64,000 nt of DNA from Candidatus Saccharimonadota bacterium (GCA_016187125.1 JACPKF010000007.1:835-64834); one strand, 5' to 3'; shown: positions 10,919-63,997, counted from the stretch's first letter. Numbers and translations are program-made. Notes: generated by a model from the letters alone, not told the origin.

Positions 10919-12088
10919 ATGCTAAAAAAGAAGACTAACGATCAATCGGCTGCCAAGCCCGATAAAGTTAAAAAACCGGGGCGAACTCCAAGAATGAAAT
11001 CGTTCGACCGAGAAATGGAGCAGCTGGTTACTCGGGGCAAAAAAGAGGGCAAGATTGAGCAGCGCGATGTTTTTGAACTAATTCCAGACACTCCGGCCAA
11101 CCTTGAAGTTTTGGACCAGCTGTATAACGAGCTGGCGGAAGCCGAAATTGAACTTATAGAAGTTGTTGAACCCAGCGTTACCGAGATTAGTGATGAGTGG
11201 GAAGAAGACGAGCCGGCAGCTGTAGTAGCACCGGTCAATACCACTTATCTAGACGATGTTTCAGACGACTCGGTCCGGCTTTATCTGCGTGAAATCGGCA
11301 AAATTCCGCTTCTGACAGCCGAAGAGGAATTAGCCCTGGCCAAAAAAGTTGTTACCGGCGACAAGCGCGCCAAAGACGCCATGGCCGAGGCTAATATGCG
11401 CCTGGTGGTTTCGATTGCTAAACGCTACGTTGGCCGAGGACTGGATCTACTGGATCTTATTCAAGAGGGCAATACTGGTCTATTGCGGGCCGTCGAAAAA
11501 TTTGATCCGGACCGGGGCTTCAAGTTCAGTACTTATGCCACTTGGTGGATTCGCCAGGCTATAACTCGGGCCATTGCCGATCAAGCCCGCACCATCAGAA
11601 TTCCAGTGCACATGGTCGAGACCATTAACAAGCTGCTACGGACTCAGCGCCGCTTGACCCAAGAGCTCAACCGCGAGCCAACCAACGAAGAAATCGGCGC
11701 CGCTATGGAAATGGACGTTGATAAAGTTGAGCACATTATGAAAATCAAGCAGGATATTTCCAGTCTTGATGCCAGCGTCCGCGACGACGAAGAAGACAGC
11801 GTGCTGGGCGATTTTATAGAGGATGAAGACACTAAAACGCCTACCGAGTCAGCCTCCGAACAGTTGCTCAAAGAACAAGTTAAAAGGATTTTAGGCACAC
11901 TGACCGAGCGCGAGCAAAAAATCCTCAAGCTTCGCTTTGGACTGGAAGACGGCAAAAGCCACACGCTGGAAGAAGTTGGCCAGGAATTTAGCGTTACTCG
12001 CGAGCGCATCCGTCAAATCGAGGCTAAAGCTCTGGCCAAGTTAAGAAAACATAAGGACACTAGAAAGCTTCATGAATATCTTCAATAG
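10919..12088 (+). CDS. rpoD: RNA polymerase primary sigma factor (sigma-70 family)
   Basis: Regions 1.2-4.2 are present: [56 protein letters not shown]. Confidence 0.95.
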
Positions 12089-12173
12089 TCATAGCACAAA
12101 CCCCGCATATTTTCATGGCGTTTCGCAATCCGCCGCAGGCGGACTGCTCCACCCAGAAAATTGGCGGGGCAGG
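12089..12173 (+). repeat. 85-nt hairpin element (family F1) with core cgcaatccgccgNaggcggactgctccaccc
   Basis: Outer inverted repeat ccccgcatattttc / gaaaattggcgggg with an inner hairpin tccgcc/ggcgga. A second copy is at 14733-14808. It sits between the two rpoD 3'-end copies. Confidence 0.75.
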
Positions 12174-12206
12174 GACACCCGCAAGTTGCATGAGTATTTG
12201 CAGTAG
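12174..12206 (+). pseudogene. displaced duplicate of the rpoD 3' end ([10 protein letters not shown])
   Basis: gac acc cgc aag ttg cat gag tat ttg cag tag encodes the same 10 aa as 12056-12088. Six codons differ, all synonymously. Its TAG abuts the ATG of the next gene. Confidence 0.85.
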
Positions 12207-12776
12207 ATGAGAATTATTGGACTTGCCGGCACCAACGGTTCAGGGAAGGATAGTTTGGGCCAGATTTTGGCTGATGGTTATGGTTACATGTTTGTGTCGG
12301 TAGCTGATTTTTTAAGGGACGAGGCTAAAAAACGCGGCTTGCCGATTGAAAGGGAAGTTTTGCGGACAATCAGCGCCGAGTGGCGCCGTGAGTACGGACT
12401 GGGGGTTTTAGTTGATAGGGCAGTAGAATTATTCCAAAAATCCGGCAAGAACTATAAAGGTTTGGCAATCAGCCCGATGCGTAACGGCGGCGAGGCCGAC
12501 AGATTAAAAGAGCTAGGCGGCAGATTAGTTTGGATAGACGCTGATCCTAAAATTCGTTACGGGCGAATAACCAATCGTGCCCGTAGCACCGAAGATAAGA
12601 AAACTTATGAGCAATTTTTAGCCGAGGAACAAGCCGAAATGCAGCCCAGCGGCGACGAGGCCACCTTGAGCTTGAGCGATGTTAAAAAACGAGCCGACAT
12701 TTTTATTCAAAATGATGTTGAATCTTTGGAAGATTTCCGCCAAATCATCGACCAAAAATTAGCTCAACTTTTGTAA
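12207..12776 (+). CDS. P-loop nucleotide/nucleoside kinase-like protein (dephospho-CoA kinase / dNMP kinase-like)
   Basis: Walker A motif GLAGTNGSGKDS at the N-terminus in a small 189-aa protein. The exact substrate is not inferable. Confidence 0.55.
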   Translation: MRIIGLAGTNGSGKDSLGQILADGYGYMFVSVADFLRDEAKKRGLPIEREVLRTISAEWRREYGLGVLVDRAVELFQKSGKNYKGLAISPMRNGGEADRLKELGGRLVWIDADPKIRYGRITNRARSTEDKKTYEQFLAEEQAEMQPSGDEATLSLSDVKKRADIFIQNDVESLEDFRQIIDQKLAQLL

Positions 12777-12791
12777 TTAACAGATCAAATT

Positions 12792-12829
12792 ATAGGAATA
12801 AATTCAGCGATCGCTGAATTTATTCCTAT
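12792..12829. terminator. perfect 38-nt palindrome centred on GCGATCGC, likely terminator
   Basis: ataggaataaattcagcga|tcgctgaatttattcctat lies 16 nt after the kinase stop. Confidence 0.6.
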
Positions 12830-14692: not shown

Positions 14693-14732
14693 AATACCTA
14701 CCTACTATCTGTCTGGCGTATAATTTTAAGTA

Positions 14733-14808
14733 ACCCGCAGATCTTTTTGGGGAGTTGCGCAATCCGCCGAAGGCGGACTGCTCCACCCTGAAAAGGTATG
14801 GGGCAAGT
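14733..14808 (+). repeat. second copy of the F1 hairpin element
   Basis: The core gcgcaatccgccgaaggcggactgctccaccc (14757-14788) and flanking inverted repeats align with 12089-12173. Confidence 0.75.
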
Positions 14809-14952: not shown

Positions 14953-17643
14953 GTGAGCCGTAAGAAATTGGCTATCATAGACGGAAAGAGCGTTTTCTAT
15001 AGAGGGTACTACGCCTTGCCGAATTTAAGTACCAAAGACGGAATTCCGACTGGTGGAGTTTATGGTTTCGCGTCTATGAGCCTGGAGCTTATTAAAAAAC
15101 TCAAACCGGATTATGTGGCCGTAGCTTGGGATAAACCCAAAACCAACATTAGAGCCCGGCTAAAAATGTATCCGGAGTATAAGGCCGGCCGCAAACCGGC
15201 GCCGCCGGATTTTTACACCCAAATCCCGATTTTGCATGAACTGCTAGAAGCCTTCGGTTGGCCACTGTATGAACTGGACGACTATGAAGCCGACGATATT
15301 ATGGGCACCTTGGCAGTCCAGGCCCGTAAAAAAAATATCGAAACCCAGCTTATAACCTCCGATCTTGACGCCCTGCAGCTGATCAACGGTCACGTCAAGG
15401 TCTATGCCCTAAAAAAAGGCTTCTCTAATATCGAAGAGTTTCATACCGAGAGTTTTGAAGCCAAATACGGCCTCAAAGCCGAGCAATTTTTGGATCTAAA
15501 ATCTCTAAAAGGTGACAGCTCCGATAATATTCCCGGCGTACCAGGCGTGGGTGAAAAAACAGCTATTGCTCTGCTTCAACAATACAAAACCCTGGACGGA
15601 GTTTACAAAAACTTGGAGTTAGTTAAAGACAGCCTACGCAAAAAACTTGAGGACGGCAAAGACTTAGCCTATTTGAGCAAGCAACTAGCTAAACTTTGGA
15701 CTAATGCGCCGCTTAAATTGAACCTGGAGGCGATGGACACCAGTAAATGTGATACCGACCGTCTGCGGAGTTTGCTGCAGGAACTGGAATTTCGCAGTTT
15801 GCTGAACAACTTGCCGGAGAATATGCGGGTTACACCCGCAGTAACAAGTAATATGCCCCAAGCAAAAAGCGGAGATAAATTAAAGCTCCAGGAACATAAA
15901 TTAATTGATTCAGACGCTAAACTGGCTGAAATCAAGTTGGCTGGCGATAAGATTTTTATTCATTCTCGAGCTGCCGGCCGGCACGGTGCCGACCCGCAGG
16001 TTTTGATTATCGGCACCGACAAAATTTCTTACACGCTTGATTTAACCAAGCTGGACCATAAAAAGGTCCAGCAAGCTATCAGCCATCAGCTAAAGGTTAG
16101 TAGTTCGGTGGTTGGCTATGACTTGAAATCTGATATTAAAGTTTTAAAAAACCTTGGTATCCAACCGCCGCCTGTGGCTCATGACGTCCTGGTAGCGGCC
16201 TTTTTGCTAAATCCCTTAATGCGAGTTCAAACTTTGACCGAACTGGCCACGGTAAATTTGGGCTACGGCGGCACGAGCTTAGAAGATTTGCCAACTGAAG
16301 ATTTTATAGAACGCTCCGCCGAGCTTATGGCAATTCTCATTAAGCTTTACCACGTCCAGCAACACGAATTTGGCGAGGCGCCAACGCTCGAGCGCTTAGC
16401 TAAACAAATCGAATGGCCGCTTATTCCGGTGTTAGCCGATATGGAATACCGCGGTATTAAACTCGACGTTAAGTATCTGAAAAATTTTTCCAAAAAAATA
16501 GAAGATTCGATTAGCGATCTGGAGCAAACCATTTATGGCCACGCCGACTACGAGTTTAATATCAGCTCGCCGGCCCAGCTAGCAGACGTACTATTTACCA
16601 AACTCAATCTTCCCAAGCAGGGAATTAAAAAAGGCAAAACCGGCTTGTCAACGGCGGCCAGCGAGCTGGAAAAATTGCGCGGCCTGCATCCGATTATTGA
16701 TTTAATTAGCCAGTACCGCGAAGTAACTAAGCTCAAAAATACCTACGTTGACGCCTTGCCGGCCTTAGTGGACGCCAGTAGCCGCATTCACACTACTTTT
16801 AATCTGACAGTTGCTCAAACCGGCCGGCTATCGAGTGCCGATCCGAATTTGCAAAATATTCCGGTCCGCACCGAGCTGGGTAAAAATATCCGCACCGCTT
16901 TTATAGCGGAGCGCGGCAATGTTTTTGTCAGTGCCGATTACAGCCAGTTCGAAATAAGGCTAGCGGCCGCCTTTTCGGGCGACCAAGATATGATTGACGC
17001 TTTTAACCAAGATATGGACATTCATGCCGAAACCGCCGCGCTGGTGTTGGGTATCCCGGTTGATAAGGTAACTAGCGAACAGCGTTATGCGGCTAAAGCC
17101 GTCAATTTTGGCATCATGTACGGCCAAGGCCCGCATGGTCTGAGTGTTGGTACGGGTATGGATTACACAGCGGCCCGGGAATTTATTGCCAGATATTTTG
17201 AAGTGCGGCCCAAACTCAAAGAATATATAGATTCGATTCGTAGGGAAGCCGAAGAGCAGGGCTTTGTAGAGACAATCCTAGGCCGCCGCCGGCCAACTCC
17301 GGACGTTAAATCTTCTAACTTCGCGGTCCGCGAGGCTGCTTATCGGGCGGCAATAAACATGCCATTGCAAGGCAGTGCCGCCGATCTCATGAAAATGGCG
17401 ATGGTAGCGGTGAACAAAGAATTTGAGAGCCGCTACCATCGCCATCCTGAGCGGAGCGATAGCAGAGTCGAGGGATGGCCTCGAATGTTACTTCAGATCC
17501 ATGACTCTATACTTGTTGAAACCCCTGAGTCGTTAACTAAACAAGTGGGCGATTTGCTTAAGGACACCATGGAAAACATCCACAAACTACCCGTGAAGTT
17601 GGCAGTAGATATTTCTGTAGGTAAAAATTGGGGCGAACTCTAG
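14953..17643 (+). CDS. polA: DNA polymerase I
   Basis: 896 aa with a 5' nuclease N-terminus, a 3'-5' exo-like domain and pol motifs (DYSQFEIRLAA, KAVNFGIMYG, QIHDS). GTG start. Confidence 0.95.
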   Translation: MSRKKLAIIDGKSVFYRGYYALPNLSTKDGIPTGGVYGFASMSLELIKKLKPDYVAVAWDKPKTNIRARLKMYPEYKAGRKPAPPDFYTQIPILHELLEAFGWPLYELDDYEADDIMGTLAVQARKKNIETQLITSDLDALQLINGHVKVYALKKGFSNIEEFHTESFEAKYGLKAEQFLDLKSLKGDSSDNIPGVPGVGEKTAIALLQQYKTLDGVYKNLELVKDSLRKKLEDGKDLAYLSKQLAKLWTNAPLKLNLEAMDTSKCDTDRLRSLLQELEFRSLLNNLPENMRVTPAVTSNMPQAKSGDKLKLQEHKLIDSDAKLAEIKLAGDKIFIHSRAAGRHGADPQVLIIGTDKISYTLDLTKLDHKKVQQAISHQLKVSSSVVGYDLKSDIKVLKNLGIQPPPVAHDVLVAAFLLNPLMRVQTLTELATVNLGYGGTSLEDLPTEDFIERSAELMAILIKLYHVQQHEFGEAPTLERLAKQIEWPLIPVLADMEYRGIKLDVKYLKNFSKKIEDSISDLEQTIYGHADYEFNISSPAQLADVLFTKLNLPKQGIKKGKTGLSTAASELEKLRGLHPIIDLISQYREVTKLKNTYVDALPALVDASSRIHTTFNLTVAQTGRLSSADPNLQNIPVRTELGKNIRTAFIAERGNVFVSADYSQFEIRLAAAFSGDQDMIDAFNQDMDIHAETAALVLGIPVDKVTSEQRYAAKAVNFGIMYGQGPHGLSVGTGMDYTAAREFIARYFEVRPKLKEYIDSIRREAEEQGFVETILGRRRPTPDVKSSNFAVREAAYRAAINMPLQGSAADLMKMAMVAVNKEFESRYHRHPERSDSRVEGWPRMLLQIHDSILVETPESLTKQVGDLLKDTMENIHKLPVKLAVDISVGKNWGEL
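17442..17478 (+). repeat. in-frame hairpin insert (family F4, CCTGAGC...GTCGARGG) inside polA
   Basis: ccatcctgagcggagcgatagcagagtcgagggatgg is translated as HPERSDSRVEGW just upstream of the QIHDS motif. Related units are at 24445-24508 and 62650-62790. Confidence 0.65.
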
Positions 17644-17646
17644 CTT

Positions 17647-18285
17647 ATGAATAACTCGATTCCTGATCAAAGAGATTTTTGGAATAGAAGACACGGTAAT
17701 GAGCTAGAGGAAGACAGAGACGTTAATCCATTCGCTATCCTTGCTGAGCAAAGTTTTCAACCGCATTCTAAAGTTTTAGATTTGGGCTGTGGAAGGGCAA
17801 GCGATGCGGTTTATTTTGCGAGTAAAGGCCACAGTGTTTTAGCAACTGACTTTTCAGAGACAGTAATCGATCATAACAAAAAAACTTTGAGTAATTCTGG
17901 AGTTGATTTTCAAGTTTTTGATTTACGCCAGTCGCTTCCAGCAGGATCGGAAAGCTTCGACGCCGTTTATTCTAGCCTATCTCTTCATTACTTTGGCGAT
18001 AAAATTACCAAAGGAATCTTTAGTGAGATTCACCGAGTACTCAAGACTGGCGCGACTTTTGCTTTTAGTTGCAAGTCTGTCAACGATCAGCACTACGGCG
18101 AAGGAAGCGAAATAGAAAAGAATGTTTTCATATCCCCTAAAGGCTACCTTAGACATTTCTTTTCTGAGAGTTATGTAAAAGAACTTTTAGCTGATGGCTT
18201 CGAAATTGATCTGCTTGAAGAAGTGCAAGAGGATTATGTGGGAGAGGATTCACATATTATCCACTGTATTGCCCGGAAGTTATAA
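17647..18285 (+). CDS. class I SAM-dependent methyltransferase (cassette between two polA 3' ends)
   Basis: Motif I is VLDLGCGRASDAVYFASKGHSVLATDFS. The ATG lies 3 nt after the polA stop. Confidence 0.85.
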   Translation: MNNSIPDQRDFWNRRHGNELEEDRDVNPFAILAEQSFQPHSKVLDLGCGRASDAVYFASKGHSVLATDFSETVIDHNKKTLSNSGVDFQVFDLRQSLPAGSESFDAVYSSLSLHYFGDKITKGIFSEIHRVLKTGATFAFSCKSVNDQHYGEGSEIEKNVFISPKGYLRHFFSESYVKELLADGFEIDLLEEVQEDYVGEDSHIIHCIARKL

Positions 18286-18291
18286 ATTGTA

Positions 18292-18339
18292 AAACTCAAA
18301 GTCGATATCTCCACCGGCAAAAACTGGGGCGAACTATAA
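18292..18339 (+). pseudogene. displaced duplicate of the polA 3' end (KLKVDISTGKNWGEL*)
   Basis: Parallels 17596-17643 (KLAVDISVGKNWGEL*) with 9 synonymous and 2 replacement codon differences. Confidence 0.85.
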
Positions 18340-37863: not shown

Positions 37864-38059
37864 CCCATCTCACACCTCCACTCCAGCTTCGGAAACTTTG
37901 TGCGGCCTACAACAAGCATACCGCTCGCCCGGCCTTCGTAGCCAAGGCCACTTCGGCGGAGTAGGCTCACCATACCTTACAGGTATGCTTCCTCACCTGA
38001 TGCTTGTTTCGTCTACACCTAAAGGTTTCTCACTTAACAGACTGGAGATATGAAATGGG
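37864..38059. other. ~196-nt rod-like structured element (long imperfect terminal inverted repeats); ncRNA or MITE
   Basis: The 5' cccatctcacacctccactccagcttcggaaactttgtg pairs with the 3' cacctaaaggtttctc...gactggagatatgaaatggg. The internal module cgcccggccttcgtagccaaggccacttcggcggag recurs inverted at ~45940-45975. Confidence 0.5.
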
Positions 38060-38098: not shown

Positions 38099-40186
38099 AT
38101 GGATGACAAAGCAAAAAATCTAGACAGTCAACCATCCAATCAGCCAAATAGTAGAACCGCGCCCGGTCGTAACTTGGTTACTTCAACCGGCCGAAATGTC
38201 TCTAGAGGGGCGGCCATCCGGGCCCAAAAACAAGCGGTTAACGATGCTAATCGGGTAGCTAGTCAATATCTTGATGCAGCCAATAAACATCCGCTGGCTA
38301 GCGGAGACCGGCCAAGACGTGCCAACGTTATTGATGATAATCCGCGGCTAAAAATTATTGGCTTGGGTGGCATGGATGGTGGCGGTTCTAAAAATATGCT
38401 GGTGATCGAATACCAAAATGATGCAATTGTGATTGATTGCGGCAATGATCTAGGCGTTGATCTGCCAGGCATTAACTACGGTATCGCTGATACGACTTAC
38501 CTCGATCAAATAAAAAATAAGCTAAGAGGTTTTGTCATAACCCATGGGCATCTGGACCACATGGGCGGCCTACCTCACATTTTACCCAAATATAACGTGC
38601 CGGTTTATGGCGGCCGTTTTACCATCGGACGGGTGGAGGAAATCTTTCAAAACTTTGGCCTGCCAATGCCCAAGGGCTTTGAGCTTAAAACTGTCATCAT
38701 GAACGAAACAACCCACGAACGTCTTAAAATTGGCGTGTTTTTCGTGGAATTGGTGCGAGTAACCCATGCCATCCCAGGCAGCACCATGGTAGTGGTTGAT
38801 ACACCGGTGGGTAGAATTATAAATACCGGTGACTTTCGCCTAGATCCCAATCCTTTGGATCACGAAAGAACGGATACGGCACGCATTGAGGAACTGTCTC
38901 GTGAAAATGTGCTGCTACTGATGAGCGAAAGTACTACCACCGAAACCCTTGGCCGTACGCTATCGGAAAGCCAAATCGAGAAAAGCTTTATAGACATTAT
39001 GGACCAGGCGCCCGGACGGATTTTCGTGGCTATTTTCTCGACCAATGTCAATCGCATCCAGATGATAGTTAACGCTGCTGTGCACCACGGGCGTAAAGTG
39101 GCGATTGATGGACGCAGCATGATTAGCACGCTGGAAATGGCCGTAAAAAACGGCTTTATGAAGATTCCCAAGGGTACATTTGTACCGATAGCTTCAGTGT
39201 CTAATCTCAAAGATGATCAAGTTGTGGTAGTCAGTACTGGAGCCCAAGGCGAACCGAACTCGGCGCTTCAACGCATGAGTACGGGGGATCATAAATACGT
39301 TGCATTAAAAGAACAAGACACCGTCATTCTGTCTAGCCGGGCTATTCCGTACACCGGCAATGACGCCTTAATACGCTCTATGGTTGATGAGCTCTTTAAA
39401 AAAGGAGTACACGTTTTTCGTCACGAAACCTACGAGCTGGACGGCGGTGGGCCACTGCACGTTTCCGGGCACGGCGGTCAAGAAGAATATCGGGATATGA
39501 TTAAAATGGTCAAACCAAAATTCTTTTTGCCCATTTACGGCGACTATACCGCCAAAAAATACCATATAGATATTGCTTTGGAGGAGGGAATTCCGCGGGT
39601 CAATACACTGAACGTTGACAACGGCCAAGTCATAACGCTTGCTAAAGACAAAATGCAGCTTGGTGGCGAGGTGCCGCATGGCACCATCTTGGTAGATCAA
39701 ACCGGGGCTGTGGTTAGCACGGTGGTGGTTAAAGACCGGGTCCTACTGGCCGAAGAGGGCGTAGTGGCGGTGGTGCTGACTATCGACAAAAAAACCGGCC
39801 AGCTTCTAACTAGCCCAGATATAATCAGCCGCGGCTTTATCTACATGAAAGAGAATGAAGAGCTAATGAATGCTTTTCGCGCCGAACTGCGCCGAGCGGT
39901 TAGCCAGCGCTTTAAGCGGGTTGATCTGGACCGCTTTAAGGCCGAGCTAAAAGACTACGTCACCCACTTTTTGTACGAGCAAACCCAACGCAGCCCAATT
40001 GTCATCCCAGTAGTTAACGTTATTGGCGGCCGGGCAGAAAAAGCCAATAATAATCTGCACGGTGCCGGCCAAGTTGCGCCCAGCGGTGAAACTCCCAAGA
40101 CGCCTGAAGAGATTGCTTTAGAACAGCAGCGCCGATTTGCACAGATGAGGCAACGACTGCTCAACCAAGACGCCCGTGTGGACTAA
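38099..40186 (+). CDS. rnj: ribonuclease J
   Basis: Metallo-beta-lactamase HGHLDHMGG, beta-CASP layout and the conserved HVSGHGGQEE. There is a ~90-aa polar N-terminal extension. Confidence 0.9.
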   Translation: MDDKAKNLDSQPSNQPNSRTAPGRNLVTSTGRNVSRGAAIRAQKQAVNDANRVASQYLDAANKHPLASGDRPRRANVIDDNPRLKIIGLGGMDGGGSKNMLVIEYQNDAIVIDCGNDLGVDLPGINYGIADTTYLDQIKNKLRGFVITHGHLDHMGGLPHILPKYNVPVYGGRFTIGRVEEIFQNFGLPMPKGFELKTVIMNETTHERLKIGVFFVELVRVTHAIPGSTMVVVDTPVGRIINTGDFRLDPNPLDHERTDTARIEELSRENVLLLMSESTTTETLGRTLSESQIEKSFIDIMDQAPGRIFVAIFSTNVNRIQMIVNAAVHHGRKVAIDGRSMISTLEMAVKNGFMKIPKGTFVPIASVSNLKDDQVVVVSTGAQGEPNSALQRMSTGDHKYVALKEQDTVILSSRAIPYTGNDALIRSMVDELFKKGVHVFRHETYELDGGGPLHVSGHGGQEEYRDMIKMVKPKFFLPIYGDYTAKKYHIDIALEEGIPRVNTLNVDNGQVITLAKDKMQLGGEVPHGTILVDQTGAVVSTVVVKDRVLLAEEGVVAVVLTIDKKTGQLLTSPDIISRGFIYMKENEELMNAFRAELRRAVSQRFKRVDLDRFKAELKDYVTHFLYEQTQRSPIVIPVVNVIGGRAEKANNNLHGAGQVAPSGETPKTPEEIALEQQRRFAQMRQRLLNQDARVD

Positions 40187-40354
40187 TATTTCCGGACGCT
40201 GCCTCGACTCGATATAGCTGTTGATTAAAAACAGGCTCGCTCGGGAACTCCTCGGAATTCATCCACTGGATAAATTCTTCGTCAAACAGCCCTCGCACCC
40301 AAGGACGCCTCTTTTCAACAACATCTACTCGGGCCTCGCCAGATGCCCGGAAAT
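40187..40354 (+). repeat. copy E (diverged) of the A/B/C/D/E repeat family, starting immediately after the rnj stop
   Basis: Begins atttccggacgctg and ends cgccagatgcccggaaat (inverted ends). It contains the aattcatcc module. Confidence 0.55.
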
Positions 40355-40475
40355 ATTAGTCCATCCTCCAAAAAATCGAAGCCAAGGACAGACTGTTTTA
40401 CGCTCGCCCGGCTTCAGGTTCGCTGCGCAGGCCTAGAATTCAAACCGTTGGCCACTCTATTGAAGGTTTAGAAAA

Positions 40476-40504
40476 TTGACAAAAGCACATAAATTTGCTA
40501 CAGT
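40476..40504 (+). promoter_or_regulatory. cassette-internal promoter TTGACA-17-TACAGT
   Basis: aaaaTTGACAaaagcacataaatttgcTACAGT is followed by the SD aaaagga and the ATG at 40531. Confidence 0.55.
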
Positions 40505-40530
40505 ATATCTATATTATAAAAAGGATACGT

Positions 40531-41019
40531 ATGACAACTCACGATCATCCACCTTCACCAGAACAACCAGCCACACCTAATTTACTTGGCCTTTTTGAAA
40601 GAGTTGGAATGCTAGTACAAGCGCAGACTGATGAGGACCGAGGTCTTTATCAATCAGACCCTCCTATTCATTATAAGGAGTTCACTCCTGATATAGAAGA
40701 TGGCGAAGACCGAGATCCGGATGTTACTAGCATCACTTGGCCGCTTAAACCTGAATATGATAAAGCCGACCGGTTTCTTCCTAGTGGAGAACTAATGGTA
40801 GGAACAGATGAAAAGGAAATTGTCTATACATTCGGTCGGGTAATCGCTGAAGATTTGGACCAACCAAATACACCAAAAATAAAGAAACGCCAAAAGCTTT
40901 ATAATGTTGCAAATCCCGAATGGGAATCGGAGAGAGAGTTGAGCGACGATGAAGTTGAAGAACTACAAGAAATTCAGAAAGTTCTAGCGGAAATCGAACA
41001 AAAATTAGCAGTAGACTAA
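40531..41019 (+). CDS. hypothetical acidic protein (162 aa), cassette 1 cargo
   Basis: Intact ORF with its own promoter and SD. No motif recognised. Confidence 0.5.
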   Translation: MTTHDHPPSPEQPATPNLLGLFERVGMLVQAQTDEDRGLYQSDPPIHYKEFTPDIEDGEDRDPDVTSITWPLKPEYDKADRFLPSGELMVGTDEKEIVYTFGRVIAEDLDQPNTPKIKKRQKLYNVANPEWESERELSDDEVEELQEIQKVLAEIEQKLAVD

Positions 41020-41020
41020 T

Positions 41021-41050
41021 CTTCTCAACCAAGACGCCCGGGTTGATTAG
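41021..41050 (+). pseudogene. second copy of the rnj 3' end (LLNQDARVD*)
   Basis: ctt ctc aac caa gac gcc cgg gtt gat tag versus the real ctg ctc aac caa gac gcc cgt gtg gac taa. All differences are silent. Confidence 0.85.
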
Positions 41051-41283
41051 CCCTGTTTGCGGTTCTTAAGGAATTCTTCGGTTGTTAGTCCAATATCTTT
41101 ACAAATCTGTCTGAGCAAAATTGGTGAGATATCCCGAGATCCATGAACCGGCACAGTTGTTGCCCGTCCGTCTGGATGCCTGAATTGTTGATGCGAACCG
41201 CGCTGGCGCGCCAAGCTAAAGCCCAGCCTTTCCAAAATGGCGATTACCCCTTTTGGCTTTAAGACAGGCAGCTTAACAGCCAT
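41047..41283 (-). CDS. hicA: HicA-family mRNA interferase toxin
   Basis: The pattern ILERLGFSLARQRGSHQQFRHPDGRATTVPVHGSRDISPILLRQICKDIG is the HicA (YcfA) pattern. Confidence 0.8.
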   Translation of the reverse strand: MAVKLPVLKPKGVIAILERLGFSLARQRGSHQQFRHPDGRATTVPVHGSRDISPILLRQICKDIGLTTEEFLKNRKQG

Positions 41284-41284
41284 T

Positions 41285-41503
41285 TTAGACTGCGACTAAT
41301 TGCGTACCGACGAAATATGATTCTGGCTTCTGGTTATTATCATCTTCGAGCACTAAAGCCACTACCTCTTTGAGATTTTTGTTCAATTCCTCCAGCGTTT
41401 CGCCCTGAGTGTGGGCGCCGGGCAAATCAGGCACATAGGCTACGTACAGACCAGTAGCTACATCCTTTTCAATAATTGCGGTATAGGCTTGCGCGGATTT
41501 CAT
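41285..41503 (-). CDS. hicB: HicB-like antitoxin (UPF0150 fold)
   Basis: YTAIIEKDVATGLYVAYVPDLPGAHTQGETLEELNKNLKEVVAL is the HicB N-domain pattern. It lies 1 nt upstream of hicA. TGtTATAAT is 7 nt before the ATG. Confidence 0.75.
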   Translation of the reverse strand: MKSAQAYTAIIEKDVATGLYVAYVPDLPGAHTQGETLEELNKNLKEVVALVLEDDNNQKPESYFVGTQLVAV

Positions 41504-41538
41504 AATAATAATTATAACACGTTTCGGCTGTGTTCGGG

Positions 41539-41595
41539 CGCCGCTTCGCCCAGATGCGCCAACGTCTGCTTAACCAAGACGCTCGCGTCGACTAG
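41539..41595 (+). pseudogene. third copy of the rnj 3' end (RRFAQMRQRLLNQDARVD*)
   Basis: Of 19 codons parallel to 40130-40186, 10 differ and all are silent (the stop changes TAA to TAG). Confidence 0.88.
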
Positions 41596-41645
41596 TCTCA
41601 ATCCGAGGTCCGAGACTTACTTCATAATAGATAACAGATCAAGAT

Positions 41646-41683
41646 ATGAGAATAGATTCAGCGTTCGCTGAATCTATTCTCAT
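41646..41683. terminator. palindromic hairpin atgagaatagattcagcg-tt-cgctgaatctattctcat
   Basis: An 18-bp stem 50 nt after the last rnj-end copy. It has the same termini as the element at 1561-1661. Confidence 0.6.
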
Positions 41684-41780
41684 ACTCTTTGTCCACCTGC
41701 AGAACCTAGTTATCGACGCGTCGAGTAAGTTAACTGCAAGGGAAGAGAATATTTAATTAGTTAAGTACTTAATGATTTAC

Positions 41781-42599
41781 CTAGTGCCTGCCCCATCTTC
41801 TGCCCAATTCAGCCTGTCTGTACTCCGTAAAAGAGTTGGCAAACCGCATTACCGGCCAACGAGTGAGGTGCGAGCTATCAGAATAGAGAACAAGCGGTGT
41901 ATCATCGAAAGGCCAAGTTTGGCAGAAATCTTTGCTTTTAAGCCAGACATGTAAGCTAGTTAGGTTGGCAAAGGATATTCTTGTCCCAGTCTCGGCAGTG
42001 TAACTTTGAAGGCGTTCGCCGAAGCCTATGCTAGTAACATCTGCTGCAATCCAGCTGACGGGCGTAGACCTAAGAGCTTCTTGAGTTCGGGCAAAACGAT
42101 CAAGATCGGTCCAGTGATAATCCCCATATTCACCAGCCTCTAAACCAATCATTTTTATCAAGTATTGAATATGTGAATAAGAATCTGAATTAGCTGGATC
42201 AAGCTTACTGCCTGCGTAGGCTTTATCCCACAAGCTCTTTATAACTTCGGCTGGCATATTGCTGTGACTAATAAGTTCAGCTAAATCTGCATTAAATGAC
42301 AAGACATGCGGGTTATAATCAACCATAAGTACTCTATCCAGCTGTAGCTCAGGCAAAATTGAAAGCATGCCCCCAGCGCCAATAAATAGACCTATCCCAC
42401 CTCTTATACTCCTTAGACGATCCTGAATAATAGGCGCCAAATCTTTAAAACCTTGATCATTTGATACTGCCCATTTTGGTTTGTCTGTTCTTAGACTTCC
42501 GTAGTCACCGGAAAGGCTAGGATCACCGGAAGAGAAATCGTCATTGTTTAGTCCTACTAAACCATCTATAGGGAAACGTTCAGGAGTAGGAGAATTCAT
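41781..42599 (-). CDS. hypothetical protein (272 aa)
   Basis: Intact ORF. A GxGG stretch (LFIGAGGMLS) hints at a Rossmann-like fold only. Confidence 0.45.
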   Translation of the reverse strand: MNSPTPERFPIDGLVGLNNDDFSSGDPSLSGDYGSLRTDKPKWAVSNDQGFKDLAPIIQDRLRSIRGGIGLFIGAGGMLSILPELQLDRVLMVDYNPHVLSFNADLAELISHSNMPAEVIKSLWDKAYAGSKLDPANSDSYSHIQYLIKMIGLEAGEYGDYHWTDLDRFARTQEALRSTPVSWIAADVTSIGFGERLQSYTAETGTRISFANLTSLHVWLKSKDFCQTWPFDDTPLVLYSDSSHLTRWPVMRFANSFTEYRQAELGRRWGRH

Positions 42600-48497: not shown

Positions 48498-48523
48498 TTC
48501 TAATATTCTTAAGAATATTAGAA
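48498..48523. repeat. perfect 26-nt palindrome ttctaatattctt|aagaatattagaa just upstream of the HTH gene
   Basis: It ends 7 nt before the ATG at 48531 and belongs to the 4-copy palindrome family. Confidence 0.8.
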
Positions 48524-48530
48524 TGTAACT

Positions 48531-48809
48531 ATGAAAACTATCTATTCTTCTCAAGATCTAGCAGATATTTTAAAAGGGGGAGCCAATCATCACAGAATTA
48601 ATATCCTTTTTTTGCTTGATAAGCGAGGCAAGCTAACACTCGACGAAGTTGCTGAGGCATTAAGGGCAAATTATAAAACTATTGCTGTCCACCTTAGCCG
48701 CCTACATAAAAGTGGGCTGGTTACCAAGCGCTATAAAGCTTCAGCTGTCGAGCATGATTTAACACCACGTGCTCGCCATATTCTAAATTTCTTAAGAATA
48801 TTAGAATGA
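48531..48809 (+). CDS. small winged-helix (ArsR-like) DNA-binding protein
   Basis: A 92-aa protein with HHRINILFLLDKRGKLTLDEVAEALRANYKTIAVHLSRLHKSGLV, an HTH pattern. The gene is bracketed by two copies of the palindrome. Confidence 0.6.
   Translation: MKTIYSSQDLADILKGGANHHRINILFLLDKRGKLTLDEVAEALRANYKTIAVHLSRLHKSGLVTKRYKASAVEHDLTPRARHILNFLRILE
48780..48807. repeat. imperfect copy of the palindrome spanning the HTH gene stop and the tlyA start
   Basis: attctaaatttcttaagaatattagaat encodes ILNFLRILE* and contains the tlyA ATG (48806). Confidence 0.75.
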
Positions 48810-50884: not shown

Positions 50885-52021
50885 CTAGACATTGAAACGG
50901 AATTCGACTACGTCGTCGGGTTGCATAATGTAGTCTTTACCCTCGGTGCGCACCTTGCCAGCGGCCCGGGCGCCCGCTACTGAACCGGCAGTAATTAAAT
51001 CCTGGTAATTTATGACTTGAGCGGCGATGAAACCTCTCTGAAAGTCGGAATGAATAACCCCTGCGGCTTGTGGGGCAGTGGACCCTTTGCTAATTGTCCA
51101 GGCCCGAACTTCTTTTTCGCCGGCGGTCAAGAAACTCTGCAAGCCCAAAACACCATATGCGGCATGAATTAACTGAATTAGCCCACTCTCATTTTGTCCA
51201 TAACTGGCAAGGAGTTCCTGACGGTCAGTTTCGTCAAGTCCCCGTAGCTCACTTTCTAATTTTGCGCAAATAAATACGGCTTTTGCGGGCGCAATTAGAT
51301 CTGTTAATTCCTTTTGCAGGGATTGTCCCTGCAAACTGGCTTCGTCGATGTTAAACACGTAAATTACTGGCTTAGCAGTTAGCAGCTGGAGTTCGTCCAA
51401 GAAAACTGACTGGTCCTTATCCATTCTAATATTCTTAAGAATATTAGAATGGGACAGGGAAGAGTTGGTTTGTAGGTGGGTATTGATAGAATTTAGGGCG
51501 TCGAGTTGAGGTTTTAGTTTTGGGTTGGCTTTAGTTTCTTTTTCCAAACGGGGCAGGCGTTTATCAACCGTTTGCAGGTCGGCAAGTACCAGTTCGGTAT
51601 TTATTATTTCTATATCCTCCGACGCTCCGACCACTAAGTCGGAAGTCGGAGCCCCGATCGAAGCGTCGGGGTTTTTCACGCGGGCTACATTTGGATCATC
51701 AAAGGCTCTTACTACGTGGCAAATGGCATTTGCTTGTCTAATGTGGGATAAAAATTGGTTGCCCAAACCCTCGCCTTGGCTGGCGCCAGCGACTAAACCG
51801 GCAATATCTACAAATGTCACCGTGGCTGGCACGATTTTTTCGGTTTTATAAATCTCGGCCAGTTTTTGCAAGCGCGAGTCGGGAATCGGCACGATGCCGG
51901 TATTTGGCTCAATGGTCGCAAAAGGGTAATTAGCAATCAGGGCATTAGCGTCTGTCAACGCATTAAACAGCGTAGACTTACCGACATTGGGGAGGCCAAT
52001 AATTCCAATACTAAGACTCAA
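50885..52021 (-). CDS. ychF: redox-regulated ATPase YchF
   Basis: GIIGLPNVGKSTLFNALT, the TGS domain and the C-terminal DDVVEFRFNV. It carries a palindrome insert at 51421-51452. Confidence 0.95.
   Translation of the reverse strand: MSLSIGIIGLPNVGKSTLFNALTDANALIANYPFATIEPNTGIVPIPDSRLQKLAEIYKTEKIVPATVTFVDIAGLVAGASQGEGLGNQFLSHIRQANAICHVVRAFDDPNVARVKNPDASIGAPTSDLVVGASEDIEIINTELVLADLQTVDKRLPRLEKETKANPKLKPQLDALNSINTHLQTNSSLSHSNILKNIRMDKDQSVFLDELQLLTAKPVIYVFNIDEASLQGQSLQKELTDLIAPAKAVFICAKLESELRGLDETDRQELLASYGQNESGLIQLIHAAYGVLGLQSFLTAGEKEVRAWTISKGSTAPQAAGVIHSDFQRGFIAAQVINYQDLITAGSVAGARAAGKVRTEGKDYIMQPDDVVEFRFNV
51421..51452. repeat. perfect 32-nt palindrome ccattctaatattctt|aagaatattagaatgg inside the ychF CDS
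   Basis: It is translated on the minus strand as SHSNILKNIRMD in the helical insertion domain and belongs to the same family as the 48.5-kb copies. Confidence 0.85.
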
Positions 52022-57680: not shown

Positions 57681-58721
57681 ATGCATATACTAGGTGGGAC
57701 GTCGGACTTCTTTGGCTTAGACATGGGAGTCAGCGCAGTTAGGGTAGTGCAACTCAAAGGAACAGGACCCACTAAGACGCTGGATCGCTACGGGCAGACG
57801 CCTATCACTGGCACTGTGGCTCTGAGTGACTCTAAGGCCGACCGCCAAAGGATCGCCCAGGTGATCCATGAGTTAACGACGCGGGTAGGTATATCAACTA
57901 AAAATGTGGCGGCTAATTTACCCTCTAGCCGGGTGTTTACGACAGTTATTGATATAGATCGTCTACCGCCTGAAGAGCTTGCCAAGACCATAAGCTATCA
58001 AGCCGAGTCGTATATTCCGACTCCCTTGTCTCAGTCTAAAATTGACTGGGCAATTATTGGTAACTCGCCTAAAGACCCTGGCAAAATTGAACTCCTGCTA
58101 TCTAGTGTGCCCAATGATTTCATCGAAAGGCGGCTCGAGATATTGGAATCCATAGGTCTCAATGTAGTGGCTTTTGAGCCTGATAACATGGCTCTAGTGC
58201 GAGCTATTACTTCACCTGATACGGCTGCTCCTTGGCTAATACTTGATATTGGCAATGCTGCGACGGATTTGGTAGTTGTAGTTGGCGGTATGCCACACTT
58301 GGCTCGTTCTATTCCTATGGGTCAGCAAGCTTTTGTCCGGGCAGCTATTCAAGGTTTGGGAGTTGATCCTTCTCAGGCGGAGCAGTTTGTGTTTAAGTTT
58401 GGCCTGTCTCGCGACAAGCTAGAAGGCCAGGTCTATGACGCCATAATTGGGACTATTGACGGTCTGGTGGCGGAGATCGAAAAATCTATTAAATTCTTTG
58501 GCGAGCGCTACAGAGGCGCCAAGTTGGAGGGGATAGTTGTAACTGGTGGCGCTTCGACATTACCTGAACTGCCGCTTTATCTGGCTAATAAATTTAACTT
58601 GAATGTCGAAATTGGCAACGCTTGGCGGAATGTTAATGTGCCAACCGAACGGCAAAACGAGGTGCTGGCGGTTTCTAACCACTTTGCCGTAGCCGTAGGC
58701 CTGGCGGAGAGAGAGACATGA
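57681..58721 (+). CDS. pilM: type IV pilus assembly protein PilM
   Basis: Actin-like ATPase fold: FGLDMGVSAVRVVQLKG ... LDIGNAATDLVVV ... VVTGGAS. Confidence 0.85.
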   Translation: MHILGGTSDFFGLDMGVSAVRVVQLKGTGPTKTLDRYGQTPITGTVALSDSKADRQRIAQVIHELTTRVGISTKNVAANLPSSRVFTTVIDIDRLPPEELAKTISYQAESYIPTPLSQSKIDWAIIGNSPKDPGKIELLLSSVPNDFIERRLEILESIGLNVVAFEPDNMALVRAITSPDTAAPWLILDIGNAATDLVVVVGGMPHLARSIPMGQQAFVRAAIQGLGVDPSQAEQFVFKFGLSRDKLEGQVYDAIIGTIDGLVAEIEKSIKFFGERYRGAKLEGIVVTGGASTLPELPLYLANKFNLNVEIGNAWRNVNVPTERQNEVLAVSNHFAVAVGLAERET

Positions 58722-58844
58722 CTACGTCATTCCCGTTCACCGTTCACCGTGCACCGTTCACCGTTAATACATGGTCAACGGTCAATGGCAAATGTAAGGT
58801 AAATGGTAGATGGCTAATTGTAAATGCCTCCGAAGGAGGATCTT
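58722..58844 (+). repeat. pilM-pilN spacer: (ttcaccg)n / (cggtaaa-like)n heptad hairpin plus an SD-sequestering hairpin
   Basis: tcccgttcaccgttcaccgtgcaccgttcaccgtta ... caacggtcaatggcaaatgtaaggtaaatggtagatgg, then cctcc-gaa-ggagg (58827-58839). It is homologous to 63863-63997. Confidence 0.75.
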
Positions 58845-63862: not shown

Positions 63863-63997
63863 AGTCGTGACTGCGTCACTCCCGTTCACCGTTCACTGTT
63901 CACCGTTCACCATTAAGGCACGGGTAATAGTTAACGGTAAATGCACGGTAAATGGTAAAAGGCTAATGGTAAATGTGGCTTCGAAGGGAGCCGTCTG
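63863..63997 (+). repeat. spacer after pilT, paralogous to the pilM-pilN spacer
   Basis: tcccgttcaccgttcactgttcaccgttcaccatta ... ttaacggtaaatgcacggtaaatggtaaaagg, then ggcttc-gaag-ggagcc (63977-63992) sequestering the SD before the ATG at 63998. Confidence 0.75.

What the first reader, a model, noticed from the sequence alone, without database searches (positions are those of the whole stretch)
40130..41595. Tandem two-cassette array behind rnj delimited by three copies of the rnj 3' end
The real rnj end (…RRFAQMRQRLLNQDARVD*, 40130-40186) is followed by cassette 1 (40187-41020). Cassette 1 holds repeat E, its own TTGACA-17-TACAGT promoter and a 162-aa orphan ORF. A 30-nt rnj-end copy follows (41021-41050, LLNQDARVD*). 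Cassette 2 (41051-41538) is hicA-hicB on the opposite strand with its own leaderless-type promoter. A 57-nt rnj-end copy follows (41539-41595). All codon differences among the three copies are silent. The layout resembles serial site-specific integration at one att site, or an integron-like array, but it is anchored in the coding 3' end of an essential RNase gene.
Basis: seen in the sequence. Interest (0 to 1): 0.85.

Follow-up and report, generated by a model that had tools for sequence, protein, structure and literature searches.

The report
Gene cassettes stacked behind duplicated gene ends
In this Saccharibacteria genome, small accessory genes were inserted one after another behind the essential RNase J gene, each insertion supplying a new gene end and pushing the old one downstream; the same pattern at other housekeeping genes suggests a general, recombinase-free route of gene gain in these tiny bacteria.

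Summary
Three same-strand copies of the rnj 3' end (40130-40186, 41021-41050, 41539-41595) bracket an orphan 162-aa gene and a hicBA toxin-antitoxin pair. All 11, 5 and 6 pairwise nucleotide differences are synonymous. Five independent Logan assemblies reproduce the array at 99.96-100% identity.

The "one att site / integron-like" reading is only partly supported. The cassettes are modular: hicBA with its 57-nt copy stands alone behind rnj in L090, and an orf162 homologue with its 30-nt copy is in L168. Extra rnj-end copies occur in 7 of about 150 Saccharibacteria loci. However, I found no recombinase and the repeats have no attC-like fold. Copy length varies from about 21 to 80 nt.

The same architecture also exists at other genes. 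In this window it is at polA and rpoD. In relatives it is at purB (nine copies, eight cassettes) and tRNA-Arg.

"Repeat E" is not cargo. It is a conserved, covarying hairpin that follows rnj in at least 7 species.

Best explanation (0.45): DNA from related lineages enters by homology-anchored additive recombination and displaces the resident gene end. Main rival (0.3): a trans-acting site-specific recombinase acting on circular cassettes. Novelty: new variant of a known kind. Interest: 0.68.

The parts
38099..40186 (+). rnj (RNase J), the anchor gene
   Evidence: Pfam RNase_J_b_CASP 6e-41 and RNase_J_C 4e-26; TIGR00649 461 bits, above its cut-off; udg-rnj-...-ftsK synteny in 80 genomes
40130..40186 (+). 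Functional rnj 3' end (copy 1), RRFAQMRQRLLNQDARVD*
   Evidence: peptide conserved across about 150 Saccharibacteria loci
40179..40363 (+). 'Repeat E': conserved long hairpin starting in the last rnj codons. It is the rnj 3' flank, not cargo.
   Evidence: 17-nt perfect arms; MFE -66.4 kcal/mol, z -5.5; found +1 to +35 nt after the rnj stop in 9 other loci (7 distinct sequences after collapsing near-identical contigs); 14 compensatory pairs, 91% of cells paired against 38-49% in slid controls; no Rfam match
40476..40504 (+). Promoter-like site TTGACA-17-TACAGT (TG-extended) of orf162
   Evidence: -35 and -10 conserved in the L168 homologous cassette
40531..41019 (+). orf162, orphan cargo gene of cassette 1
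   Evidence: No Pfam, NCBIfam or PADLOC family; only itself and one 59%-identical homologue among 5.8 billion proteins; that homologue also lies behind rnj followed by a decayed end copy
41021..41050 (+). Displaced rnj end, copy 2 (30 nt, LLNQDARVD*)
   Evidence: aligns with the functional rnj end of L090
41047..41283 (-). hicA toxin gene (cassette 2); its stop codon overlaps copy 2
   Evidence: PF07927 3e-21; 92% homologue in the database; L090 carries the homologous cassette, 82.6% nt identity over 574 nt
41285..41503 (-). hicB-like antitoxin gene (cassette 2), with TGTTATAAT at 41519-41511(-) ending 7 nt before the ATG (leaderless-type)
   Evidence: PF15919 9e-9; promoter read from the sequence
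41539..41595 (+). Displaced rnj end, copy 3 (57 nt), probably the oldest resident end
   Evidence: same -57 boundary in L090
41645..41684 (.). 18-bp-stem terminator-like hairpin after copy 3; member of a hairpin family also at 12778-12825 and 1535-1574
17605..18339 (+). Second example in this window: polA end (17605-17643, VDISVGKNWGEL*), SAM-methyltransferase cassette (17647-18285), displaced polA-end copy (18301-18339), then a hairpin
   Evidence: 10 nt differences, 1 amino-acid change; GC3 0.25 in the proximal end against 0.52 in the gene body
12056..12206 (+). Third example in this window: rpoD end (12056-12088, [10 protein letters not shown]), 85-nt insert holding a structured repeat (12098-12171), displaced rpoD-end copy (12174-12206) abutting the next gene's ATG at 12207
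   Evidence: 9 nt differences, 0 amino-acid changes; GC3 0.20 in the proximal end against 0.53 in the gene body

Best explanation
The locus is a serially built stack of small accessory-gene cassettes behind rnj. At each step, DNA from a related Saccharibacteria lineage entered. It carried that lineage's own rnj 3' end followed by its downstream cargo. It was joined on the left by homology within rnj. On the right it was joined inside the last roughly 20-80 nt of the resident rnj. That right join is an illegitimate or micro-homology join the first time, and afterwards a short-homology pairing between a displaced end copy on the donor and the recipient's functional end.

The incoming end becomes the working end of the essential gene. 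The resident end is pushed downstream as a non-coding copy. The newest cassette therefore sits closest to the gene.

Here the inferred order is:
1. hicBA was inserted at -57, leaving copy 3 and the old terminator.
2. Then rnj-end + hairpin E + promoter + orf162 was inserted at -30, leaving copy 2.

No cassette-borne enzyme is needed. DNA uptake and the host's general recombination suffice, so any conserved gene end can serve as anchor.

Shown: the structure, its reproducibility, cassette modularity, the coding-type divergence of the copies, the multiple anchors, and that no recombinase was detected in the DNA examined.
Inferred: the direction of transfer and the recombination pathway.
For: 1. 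Each copy evolved as a working coding end before it was displaced. Differences are synonymous at rnj, rpoD, polA, L132, L158 and L090. The 8 displaced purB ends show 16-26 nt differences in 72 nt but only 3-6 amino-acid changes (apart from one copy, with 12 changes, that may carry an indel), and each has a distinct natural-looking C-terminal tail.
2. Copy 3 of W and the distal copy of L090 differ at 7 nt, 6 of them at third codon positions (sequences; my binomial estimate P about 0.007). So they diverged as coding orthologues, not as junk.
3. The distal copies keep native context: a genome-typical terminator after rnj copy 3 and after the polA copy, and the rpoD copy abuts the next gene's ATG.
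4. The proximal polA and rpoD ends have GC3 of 0.20-0.25 against 0.52-0.53 for the gene bodies, which suggests (on only 10-12 codons each) that they arrived with the cargo; the 18-20 kb bin just downstream of the polA insert is also AT-rich (GC 0.39).
5. Anchors are diverse: rnj, polA, rpoD, purB and tRNA-Arg. rnj copy lengths differ by cassette.
6. No recombinase was found in 142 representative cargo ORFs, the window or the flanks. No phage or plasmid contig carries the rnj-end or purB-end motif.
7. Tail copies are strongly directional: 10 downstream on the same strand, 1 upstream, 0 on the opposite strand, for 1411 ORFs.
8. Saccharibacteria are reported to be naturally competent and to be genetically manipulable through that competence (PMC10633639 and preprint PMC10187176, abstracts).
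9. The first 27 nt of W copy 1 are only 70% identical to the L090 functional end, while copy 2 is 90% identical to it (counted by hand from the sequences). This fits the second donor having replaced rnj sequence upstream of -30.
Against: - Copies are about 75-88% identical, so donors were quite diverged, and RecA-type recombination is inefficient at that distance.
- Several independent cargo genes end 0-7 nt before an approximately 30-nt rnj copy (W, L132, L158, L168). All 8 purB copies share one left boundary. Such regular boundaries are what a site-specific system would give. The homology model explains them only through inheritance of the boundary.
- No same-species genome lacking a cassette was found, so no event could be reconstructed directly.
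- A sliding-window search for a mosaic rnj 3' region was uninformative.
- The recombinase search was a motif scan plus a Pfam summary of nearby DNA, not of whole genomes.
Confidence: 0.45

Rival explanations
1. The cassettes are mobile circles. Each carries its own copy of the anchor gene's end (30 nt for orf162, 57 nt for hicBA, about 80 nt for the purB cassettes). A host-encoded, trans-acting site-specific recombinase inserts and excises them. This would be an integron-like or CIME-like system whose attachment site must encode a working C-terminus.
For: Boundaries are regular per cassette and per array: -57 for hicBA in both W and L090, and one left boundary for 8 purB copies. Cargo stop codons abut the copies. 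Cassette sizes are 0.4-1.5 kb and the cargo is rich in toxin-antitoxin modules, as in chromosomal integrons. An 11-nt core AACCAAGACGC is identical in all three window copies. Coding constraint on the copies is expected if the cassette-borne copy becomes the gene end after each integration.
Against: No recombinase was found in the 64-kb window, in about 160 loci around rnj, in the purB array or in the cargo. At least five unrelated anchor sequences would need several specificities in genomes of under 1 Mb. The repeats have no attC-like fold. Cassettes lie in both orientations relative to the repeats, and hicBA is in opposite orientation at rnj and at purB. The first 27 nt of W copy 1 do not resemble the L090 cassette-borne end.
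Confidence: 0.3
2. The cassettes are decayed remnants of ordinary integrase-carrying integrative elements (prophages, IMEs, tycheposon-like elements) that integrated serially into gene 3' ends. Deletions then removed the integrases and most genes, leaving cargo between the att repeats.
For: Serial integration with partial-tRNA repeats and degenerate remnants is documented for tycheposons (bioRxiv 10.1101/2020.12.28.424599). A tRNA-Arg-anchored array exists in L173. One hot-spot locus (L033) carries an IS1595 transposase and a Replic_Relax protein.
Against: Not one integrase or integrase fragment was seen in the Pfam summary of 142 representative cargo ORFs (which lists only 25 of its 46 matched families), in 8 purB cassettes or in 3 tRNA cassettes. 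Cassettes are uniformly tiny and compact, with a promoter, intact gene(s) and the copy immediately after the stop. That is not the look of random deletion. No viral contig carries the att-like motif.
Confidence: 0.12
3. The copies arose in place as identical duplications (a long target-site duplication, slippage, or tandem duplication followed by gene insertion) and have since drifted.
For: The repeats are direct and flank the inserts, as target duplications do.
Against: A non-coding copy drifting neutrally would not keep the peptide. Random substitutions matched the observed absence of amino-acid changes in 0-9 of 20,000 trials for the window's rnj copy pairs, and in none for the rpoD and L132 pairs. 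Lengths of 21-90 nt that vary by event do not fit any transposase target duplication. The displaced purB copies carry different natural C-terminal tails.
Confidence: 0.03
4. The repeats are an assembly artefact.
For: None beyond the presence of repeats. Some Logan contigs break at 40238-40327.
Against: Copies share at most 11-17 exact bases. One Logan contig spans all three copies, and contigs from 5 runs match the region at 99.96-100% identity. Homologous arrays occur in other species.
Confidence: 0.01

Closest known systems
Minimal mobile elements (MMEs) of Neisseria (Saunders & Snyder 2002; Snyder 2007; as defined in PMC3787668)
   Same: Different whole-gene cassettes lie between the same conserved flanking genes (here rnj and ftsK) in related genomes. 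There are no mobility genes. Exchange is attributed to natural transformation plus homologous recombination.
   Different: As far as I know (own knowledge), MMEs replace one another and are not described as leaving stacked copies of the flanking gene's 3' end. Here insertions are additive and each displaces a coding gene end.
Serial integration of tRNA-targeting integrative elements, e.g. tycheposons in Prochlorococcus islands (bioRxiv 10.1101/2020.12.28.424599)
   Same: The incoming element supplies a new gene 3' end. The old end is pushed into the island as a partial copy. Newer elements lie closest to the gene. Tandem stacks and remnants occur.
   Different: Those elements encode tyrosine or serine recombinases and are several kb long. 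Here cassettes are 0.1-1.5 kb without any recombinase, and most anchors are protein-coding housekeeping genes.
CIMEs (cis-mobilizable elements) of Streptococcus thermophilus ICESt1/3 at the fda 3' end (own knowledge, not checked in the library)
   Same: Integrase-less segments flanked by att repeats made from the 3' end of a housekeeping gene, in tandem.
   Different: CIMEs depend on a known resident ICE integrase acting on the same att site. No such partner element was found here.
Chromosomal integron cassette arrays
   Same: An array of short, mostly single-gene or toxin-antitoxin cassettes separated by a repeated sequence, with the newest expected next to the entry site.
   Different: There is no intI. 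The repeats are copies of a coding gene end with no attC hairpin. Cassettes have their own promoters and lie in either orientation.
Orphan C-terminal/immunity modules behind rhs and cdiA genes (own knowledge)
   Same: Incoming DNA with homology to the conserved part of the gene displaces the former 3' end downstream. The displaced piece keeps a fragment of the conserved coding sequence.
   Different: There the displaced tips encode different toxins. Here the displaced ends encode the same peptide, and the cargo is unrelated genes.
Homology-facilitated illegitimate recombination in naturally transformable bacteria (de Vries & Wackernagel 2002; Prudhomme et al. 2002; own knowledge)
   Same: One long homologous anchor plus a micro-homology join allows foreign DNA to be added.
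   Different: As far as I recall, the experimental events described usually delete recipient DNA. Stacked duplications of a gene end, as seen here, are not something I know to have been reported.

Membership tests
Integron | Integron integrase gene (intI) next to the array | tested here: not met
   No tyrosine-recombinase motif in the window or loci. No integrase among the listed families in the Pfam summary of 142 cargo ORFs, which shows only the first 25 of 46 families. None among the called genes of the purB array.
Integron | attC sites: imperfect palindromes that fold as single-stranded hairpins | tested here: not met
   ssDNA folds of 3 rnj and 4 purB repeats give z-scores from -1.7 to +1.1, no better than shuffles
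Integron | Mostly promoterless cassettes in one orientation, expressed from Pc | tested here: not met
   orf162 and hicBA have their own promoter-like sites and lie on opposite strands; purB cassettes lie on both strands
Integron | Array of short cassettes separated by a repeated recombination site | tested here: met
   3 copies and 2 cassettes here; 9 copies and 8 cassettes at purB in L175
Site-specific integrative element at a gene 3' end (prophage / ICE / IME / tycheposon) | Element-encoded integrase | tested here: not met
   Cassettes of 488 and 834 nt hold only hicBA or orf162
Site-specific integrative element at a gene 3' end (prophage / ICE / IME / tycheposon) | Direct repeats made of the target gene's 3' end flank the insert, and the gene stays intact | tested here: met
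Site-specific integrative element at a gene 3' end (prophage / ICE / IME / tycheposon) | One fixed crossover or core position for a given target | tested here: inconclusive
   rnj copies of about 21, 30, 44, 57 and 80 nt. However, the same length recurs for the same cassette (W and L090), and the purB copies share one left boundary.
CIME (cis-mobilizable element) | Flanked by att sites, with no recombination genes of its own | tested here: met
CIME (cis-mobilizable element) | A related autonomous element with an integrase uses the same att site | tested here: not met
   None among about 150 rnj loci or in viral contigs. Whole genomes were not searched.
Minimal mobile element | Different gene cassettes between the same conserved flanking genes in related genomes | tested here: met
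   udg-rnj-[65-6305 nt, 167 cargo clusters]-ftsK in 114 loci
Minimal mobile element | No associated mobility genes | tested here: met
   (one exception: the L033 IS1595 transposase)
Minimal mobile element | Host is naturally transformable and exchange is by homologous recombination | not testable with these tools
   Natural competence is reported for cultured Saccharibacteria (PMC10633639). It is not known for this organism.
Type II HicAB toxin-antitoxin module | HicA toxin domain and HicB-like antitoxin domain in adjacent small genes | tested here: met
   PF07927 3e-21 and PF15919 9e-9, with the genes 1 nt apart
Type II HicAB toxin-antitoxin module | Toxicity of HicA neutralised by HicB | not testable with these tools
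   Needs an experiment
Transposon target-site duplication | Short, fixed-length duplication that is identical at insertion | tested here: not met
   Lengths of 21-90 nt vary by event; copies differ at 14-40% of positions, almost only at synonymous sites in most pairs

The most novel reading that the evidence does not exclude
Saccharibacteria (and perhaps other ultra-small CPR bacteria) may have a dedicated but unrecognised cassette-capture system. In it, small promoter-bearing cassettes each carry a copy of the 3' coding end of a housekeeping gene as their attachment site. A host factor inserts them at that gene end, so the cassette's copy becomes the working C-terminus. This builds integron-like arrays (up to 9 repeats at purB) without intI or attC.
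Probability: 0.25. Interest if true: 0.85.

Novelty: new variant of a known kind. Interest (0 to 1): 0.68.

Why it matters
CPR/Patescibacteria have tiny genomes, and how they gain genes is poorly understood. These arrays show a repeatable way of adding genes next to essential genes without breaking them. The cargo is very often toxin-antitoxin modules and orphan genes.

Each displaced end is a datable fossil of a past donor. The stacks therefore record the order and sources of horizontal acquisitions.

If the process is recombinase-free, it shows that transformation can build integron-like arrays. It also gives a design rule for additive, marker-stacking genome engineering in the few cultivable Saccharibacteria. 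If a recombinase is involved, it would be a new cassette system.

The conserved hairpin directly after rnj is a separate candidate for a new structured RNA attached to an RNase gene.

Tried and rejected
- Nearest-neighbour analysis of each copy against about 130 functional rnj ends, and of rnj 3' bodies: the relationships are star-like, so no donor could be assigned.
- Sliding-window identity of W rnj against 12 relatives, to find a mosaic 3' segment: uninformative at 70-84% identity.
- Same-species contigs (L115, L124, L097, L165) and all Logan contigs: identical where they overlap, with no cassette-free or alternative arrangement.
- Codon-usage likelihood of the copies under the window's own usage: no discrimination for rnj. 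Only GC3 was suggestive, for polA and rpoD.
- Rfam at gathering threshold over the whole window: nothing.
- Degenerate rnj-end and purB-end motifs in IMG/VR viral contigs: 0 matches.
- dif/Xer idea: the cumulative GC skew over the window shows no evident switch near rnj and genes on both sides lie mostly on the + strand, so this is not an evident terminus. The repeat has no dyad symmetry. Dropped.
- Look-up of the methyltransferase cassette in other assemblies: not on record.
- PADLOC and NCBIfam for orf162 and orf272: no hits.
- Literature searches for integrons or such arrays in Patescibacteria found nothing relevant.
- Not done: structure prediction of orf162, and whole-genome recombinase surveys.

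Full report
**1. What is in the window**

The window comes from a Candidatus Saccharibacteria (TM7) genome. The best relatives of its RNase J are Saccharibacteria MAGs, and the order udg-rnj-...-ftsK is kept in 80 species-level genomes.

- rnj occupies 38099-40186. It has RNase J beta-CASP and C-terminal domains and scores 461 bits against TIGR00649, above the cut-off.
- Its last 57 nt (40130-40186, RRFAQMRQRLLNQDARVD*) recur as direct copies at 41021-41050 (30 nt) and 41539-41595 (57 nt).
- Between copies 1 and 2 lies ORF 40531-41019 (162 aa), preceded by a TTGACA-17-TACAGT match at 40476-40504.
- Between copies 2 and 3 lie hicA (41047-41283, minus strand) and hicB (41285-41503, minus strand). 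A TGTTATAAT box ends 7 nt before the hicB ATG.
- Copy 3 is followed by an 18-bp-stem hairpin (41645-41684). Relatives of that hairpin stand behind two other genes of the window.

**2. Is it real and non-random?**

Yes. The copies differ at 11/57, 5/30 and 6/30 positions, yet every copy encodes the same peptide and a stop. Random substitutions achieve this in 0 to 9 of 20,000 trials.

The copies share too little exact sequence to mislead an assembler. Logan assemblies of five sequencing runs match the region at 99.96-100% identity, and one contig covers 38845-42768 and so all three copies.

**3.

- Among 114 loci holding both rnj and ftsK, the gap ranges from 65 to 6305 nt. It holds 236 ORFs in 167 clusters, so it is a hypervariable hot spot.
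- Extra rnj-end copies, always downstream and on the same strand, occur in 7 distinct loci of about 150. These are the window, L012/L165 (80 nt; a 335-aa membrane protein), L090, L096, L132 (a PurM-like gene), L158 (two cassettes, copies of about 21 and about 33 nt) and L168.
- The cassettes are modular. L090 has rnj-hicBA-57-nt copy with nothing else. That cassette is 82.6% identical to the window's, against 76% for rnj.
- The only homologue of orf162 in 5.8 billion proteins (59% identity) also lies behind rnj in L168. It has the same promoter and a decayed 30-nt copy right after its stop.

So "0, 1, 2 cassettes with different cargo" holds.

**4. The anchor is not special to rnj**

A scan of 1411 ORFs of at least 150 aa looked for a second copy of the last 10 residues plus a stop. 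It found 10 cases downstream on the same strand, 1 upstream and 0 on the opposite strand. Besides rnj, the hits were two more genes of this window:

- **polA.** Its end (17605-17643) is repeated at 18301-18339 behind a SAM-methyltransferase gene.
- **rpoD.** Its end (12056-12088) is repeated at 12174-12206 behind an 85-nt insert. All six changed codons are synonymous, and the copy abuts the next gene's ATG.

Following close HicA homologues into other Saccharibacteria gave two larger cases:

- **purB in L175.** The adenylosuccinate lyase gene is followed by eight further copies of its last 75-90 nt. They share one left boundary and all but one (which may carry an indel) keep a readable coding frame, with different natural-looking C-terminal tails. 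They separate eight cassettes on both strands: adh_short + ACP_PD, DUF5678, rhodanese, an RHH pair, NYN, hicBA and others. None has a recombinase.
- **tRNA-Arg in L173.** It is followed by three toxin-antitoxin cassettes (PemK, PIN, HicBA), each followed by a partial tRNA 3' end.

**5. What the copies tell us**

A displaced, non-coding copy that merely drifted would lose the peptide. Instead, differences are almost purely synonymous. Even the two displaced 57-nt copies of W and L090 differ mainly at third codon positions (6 of 7; my binomial estimate P about 0.007). Each copy therefore spent its divergence time as the working end of an orthologous gene, and the copies were brought together by transfer between lineages.

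The distal copies keep native context: terminators, or the coupled start of the next gene. The proximal polA and rpoD ends have GC3 of 0.20-0.25 against 0.52-0.53 in the gene bodies (only 10-12 codons each), and the 18-20 kb bin just downstream of the polA insert is AT-rich. So the proximal end plus the cargo is the incoming DNA and the distal copy is the displaced resident end. The newest cassette is nearest the gene.

**6. Mechanism**

I found no tyrosine-recombinase motif in the window or loci. No integrase appears among the families listed in the Pfam summary of 142 representative cargo ORFs, which shows only the first 25 of its 46 matched families. No viral contig carries the motifs. The repeats do not fold like attC sites.

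Given five unrelated anchors and cassette-specific copy lengths, I favour homology-anchored additive integration, at 0.45:
- The left crossover is in the conserved gene.
- The right join is inside the resident gene end. It is illegitimate the first time. Later it is a short-homology pairing between the donor's displaced copy and the recipient's working end. That preserves the boundary and explains why arrays grow.

Natural competence of Saccharibacteria is reported (PMC10633639).

The regular boundaries, and the cargo stop codons abutting the copies, keep a trans-acting site-specific system on circular cassettes as a serious rival (0.3). Decayed integrase-bearing elements of the tycheposon type are less likely (0.12). 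In-place duplication (0.03) and artefact (0.01) are contradicted by the evidence.

**7. Correction on "repeat E"**

The 185-nt inverted repeat 40179-40363 starts in the last rnj codons. It folds into a long hairpin (-66.4 kcal/mol, z -5.5). Homologous sequence lies +1 to +35 nt after the rnj stop in L002, L095, L092/L093, L094, L121/L122 and L123, whatever the cargo.

In the seven-sequence alignment, 91% of cells pair against 38-49% in slid controls, and 14 pairs show compensatory changes. It is therefore part of the rnj unit, probably a 3' UTR structure. It is not in Rfam. The true cargo of cassette 1 is the promoter plus orf162.

**8. Relation to known systems**

- The hot spot behaves like the minimal mobile elements of Neisseria (PMC3787668).
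- The displacement of gene ends works like serial integration of tRNA-targeting elements, and, from my own knowledge, like CIMEs and the orphan modules behind rhs/cdiA.
- It is not an integron: intI, attC and cassette orientation all fail (section 6).
- I found no description of such recombinase-less, gene-end-anchored stacks in Patescibacteria.
- I class it as a new variant of a known kind.

**9. Limits**

- No same-species genome differing by a cassette was available.
- Donors could not be assigned.
- The recombinase search covered only DNA near the arrays.
- Function of orf162 is unknown.
- Logan contigs branch at 40291-40327 in two or three samples, which may mean population variation inside hairpin E. 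This is unresolved.

Noticed in passing
window 40179-40363: A conserved hairpin of about 170-185 nt begins in the last rnj codons. It is present right after the rnj stop in 9 other loci (7 distinct sequences after collapsing near-identical contigs), has 14 compensatory pairs, and has no Rfam family. It is a candidate structured 3' UTR of the RNase J gene.
   Followed up: yes
window 17605-18339: The polA 3' end is duplicated behind a SAM-methyltransferase gene. That gene's best PADLOC match is mad2 (6e-18). The copy is followed by a hairpin.
   Followed up: partly
window 12056-12206 and 14732-14805: The rpoD 3' end is duplicated around an 85-nt insert. The insert holds a 74-nt structured repeat (stem CCCCGC...GCGGGG, inner hairpin CCGCCGCAGGCGG). 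A second copy of that repeat (77% identical) lies before polA without any duplication. No Rfam match.
   Followed up: partly
L175 804-10400 (DPYZ01000076.1, GCA_003545255.1): purB is followed by 8 further copies of its 3' end separating 8 small cassettes, several of them toxin-antitoxin-like. This is the largest array seen.
   Followed up: partly
L173 1503-4260: tRNA-Arg is followed by PemK, PIN and HicBA modules, each followed by a partial tRNA 3' end. No integrase.
   Followed up: partly
window 58714-58836 and 63863-63987: A repeat of about 120 nt lies behind two unrelated genes. It is built of five CCGTTCA(C) heptamers followed by inverted GGTAAATGG-like units. It could be an iteron or a protein-binding array.
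   Followed up: partly
window 48498-48525, 48781-48808, 51424-51451: Three copies of a 28-nt palindrome, TTCTAATATTCTTAAGAATATTAGAATG, lie at gene boundaries.
   Followed up: no
window 41632-41689, 12778-12825, 1535-1574: A family of similar long terminator-like hairpins lies behind three different genes.
   Followed up: no
window 37980 and 40238-40327: Four independent Logan contigs (from four runs) start at 37980, in the 240-nt non-coding stretch upstream of rnj. Several break or overlap by 30 nt at 40291-40327. These are graph branches that may reflect strain variation.
   Followed up: no
window 41781-42599 (-): A 272-aa ORF between copy 3 and ftsK has no homologue in any of about 160 related loci and no family in Pfam, NCBIfam or PADLOC. 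It is another orphan cargo gene, without flanking end copies.
   Followed up: partly
L096 8882-9010 and 10173-10301 (also 5912-5992, 6641-6721): A repeat of 80-130 nt follows both the functional rnj end and a displaced copy (96% identical). It also occurs elsewhere in both orientations, so it looks MITE-like.
   Followed up: no
L088/L089 8023-12757; L092/L093; L132 2981-4141: Purine-synthesis genes (FGAM synthase-like, GATase, PurM-like) lie in the rnj-ftsK gap of some lineages. In L132 the PurM-like gene is bracketed by rnj-end copies whose 12 differences are all synonymous.
   Followed up: partly
L033 9345-11598: This is the only hot-spot locus with mobility-type genes: an IS1595-family transposase and a Replic_Relax protein.
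   Followed up: no
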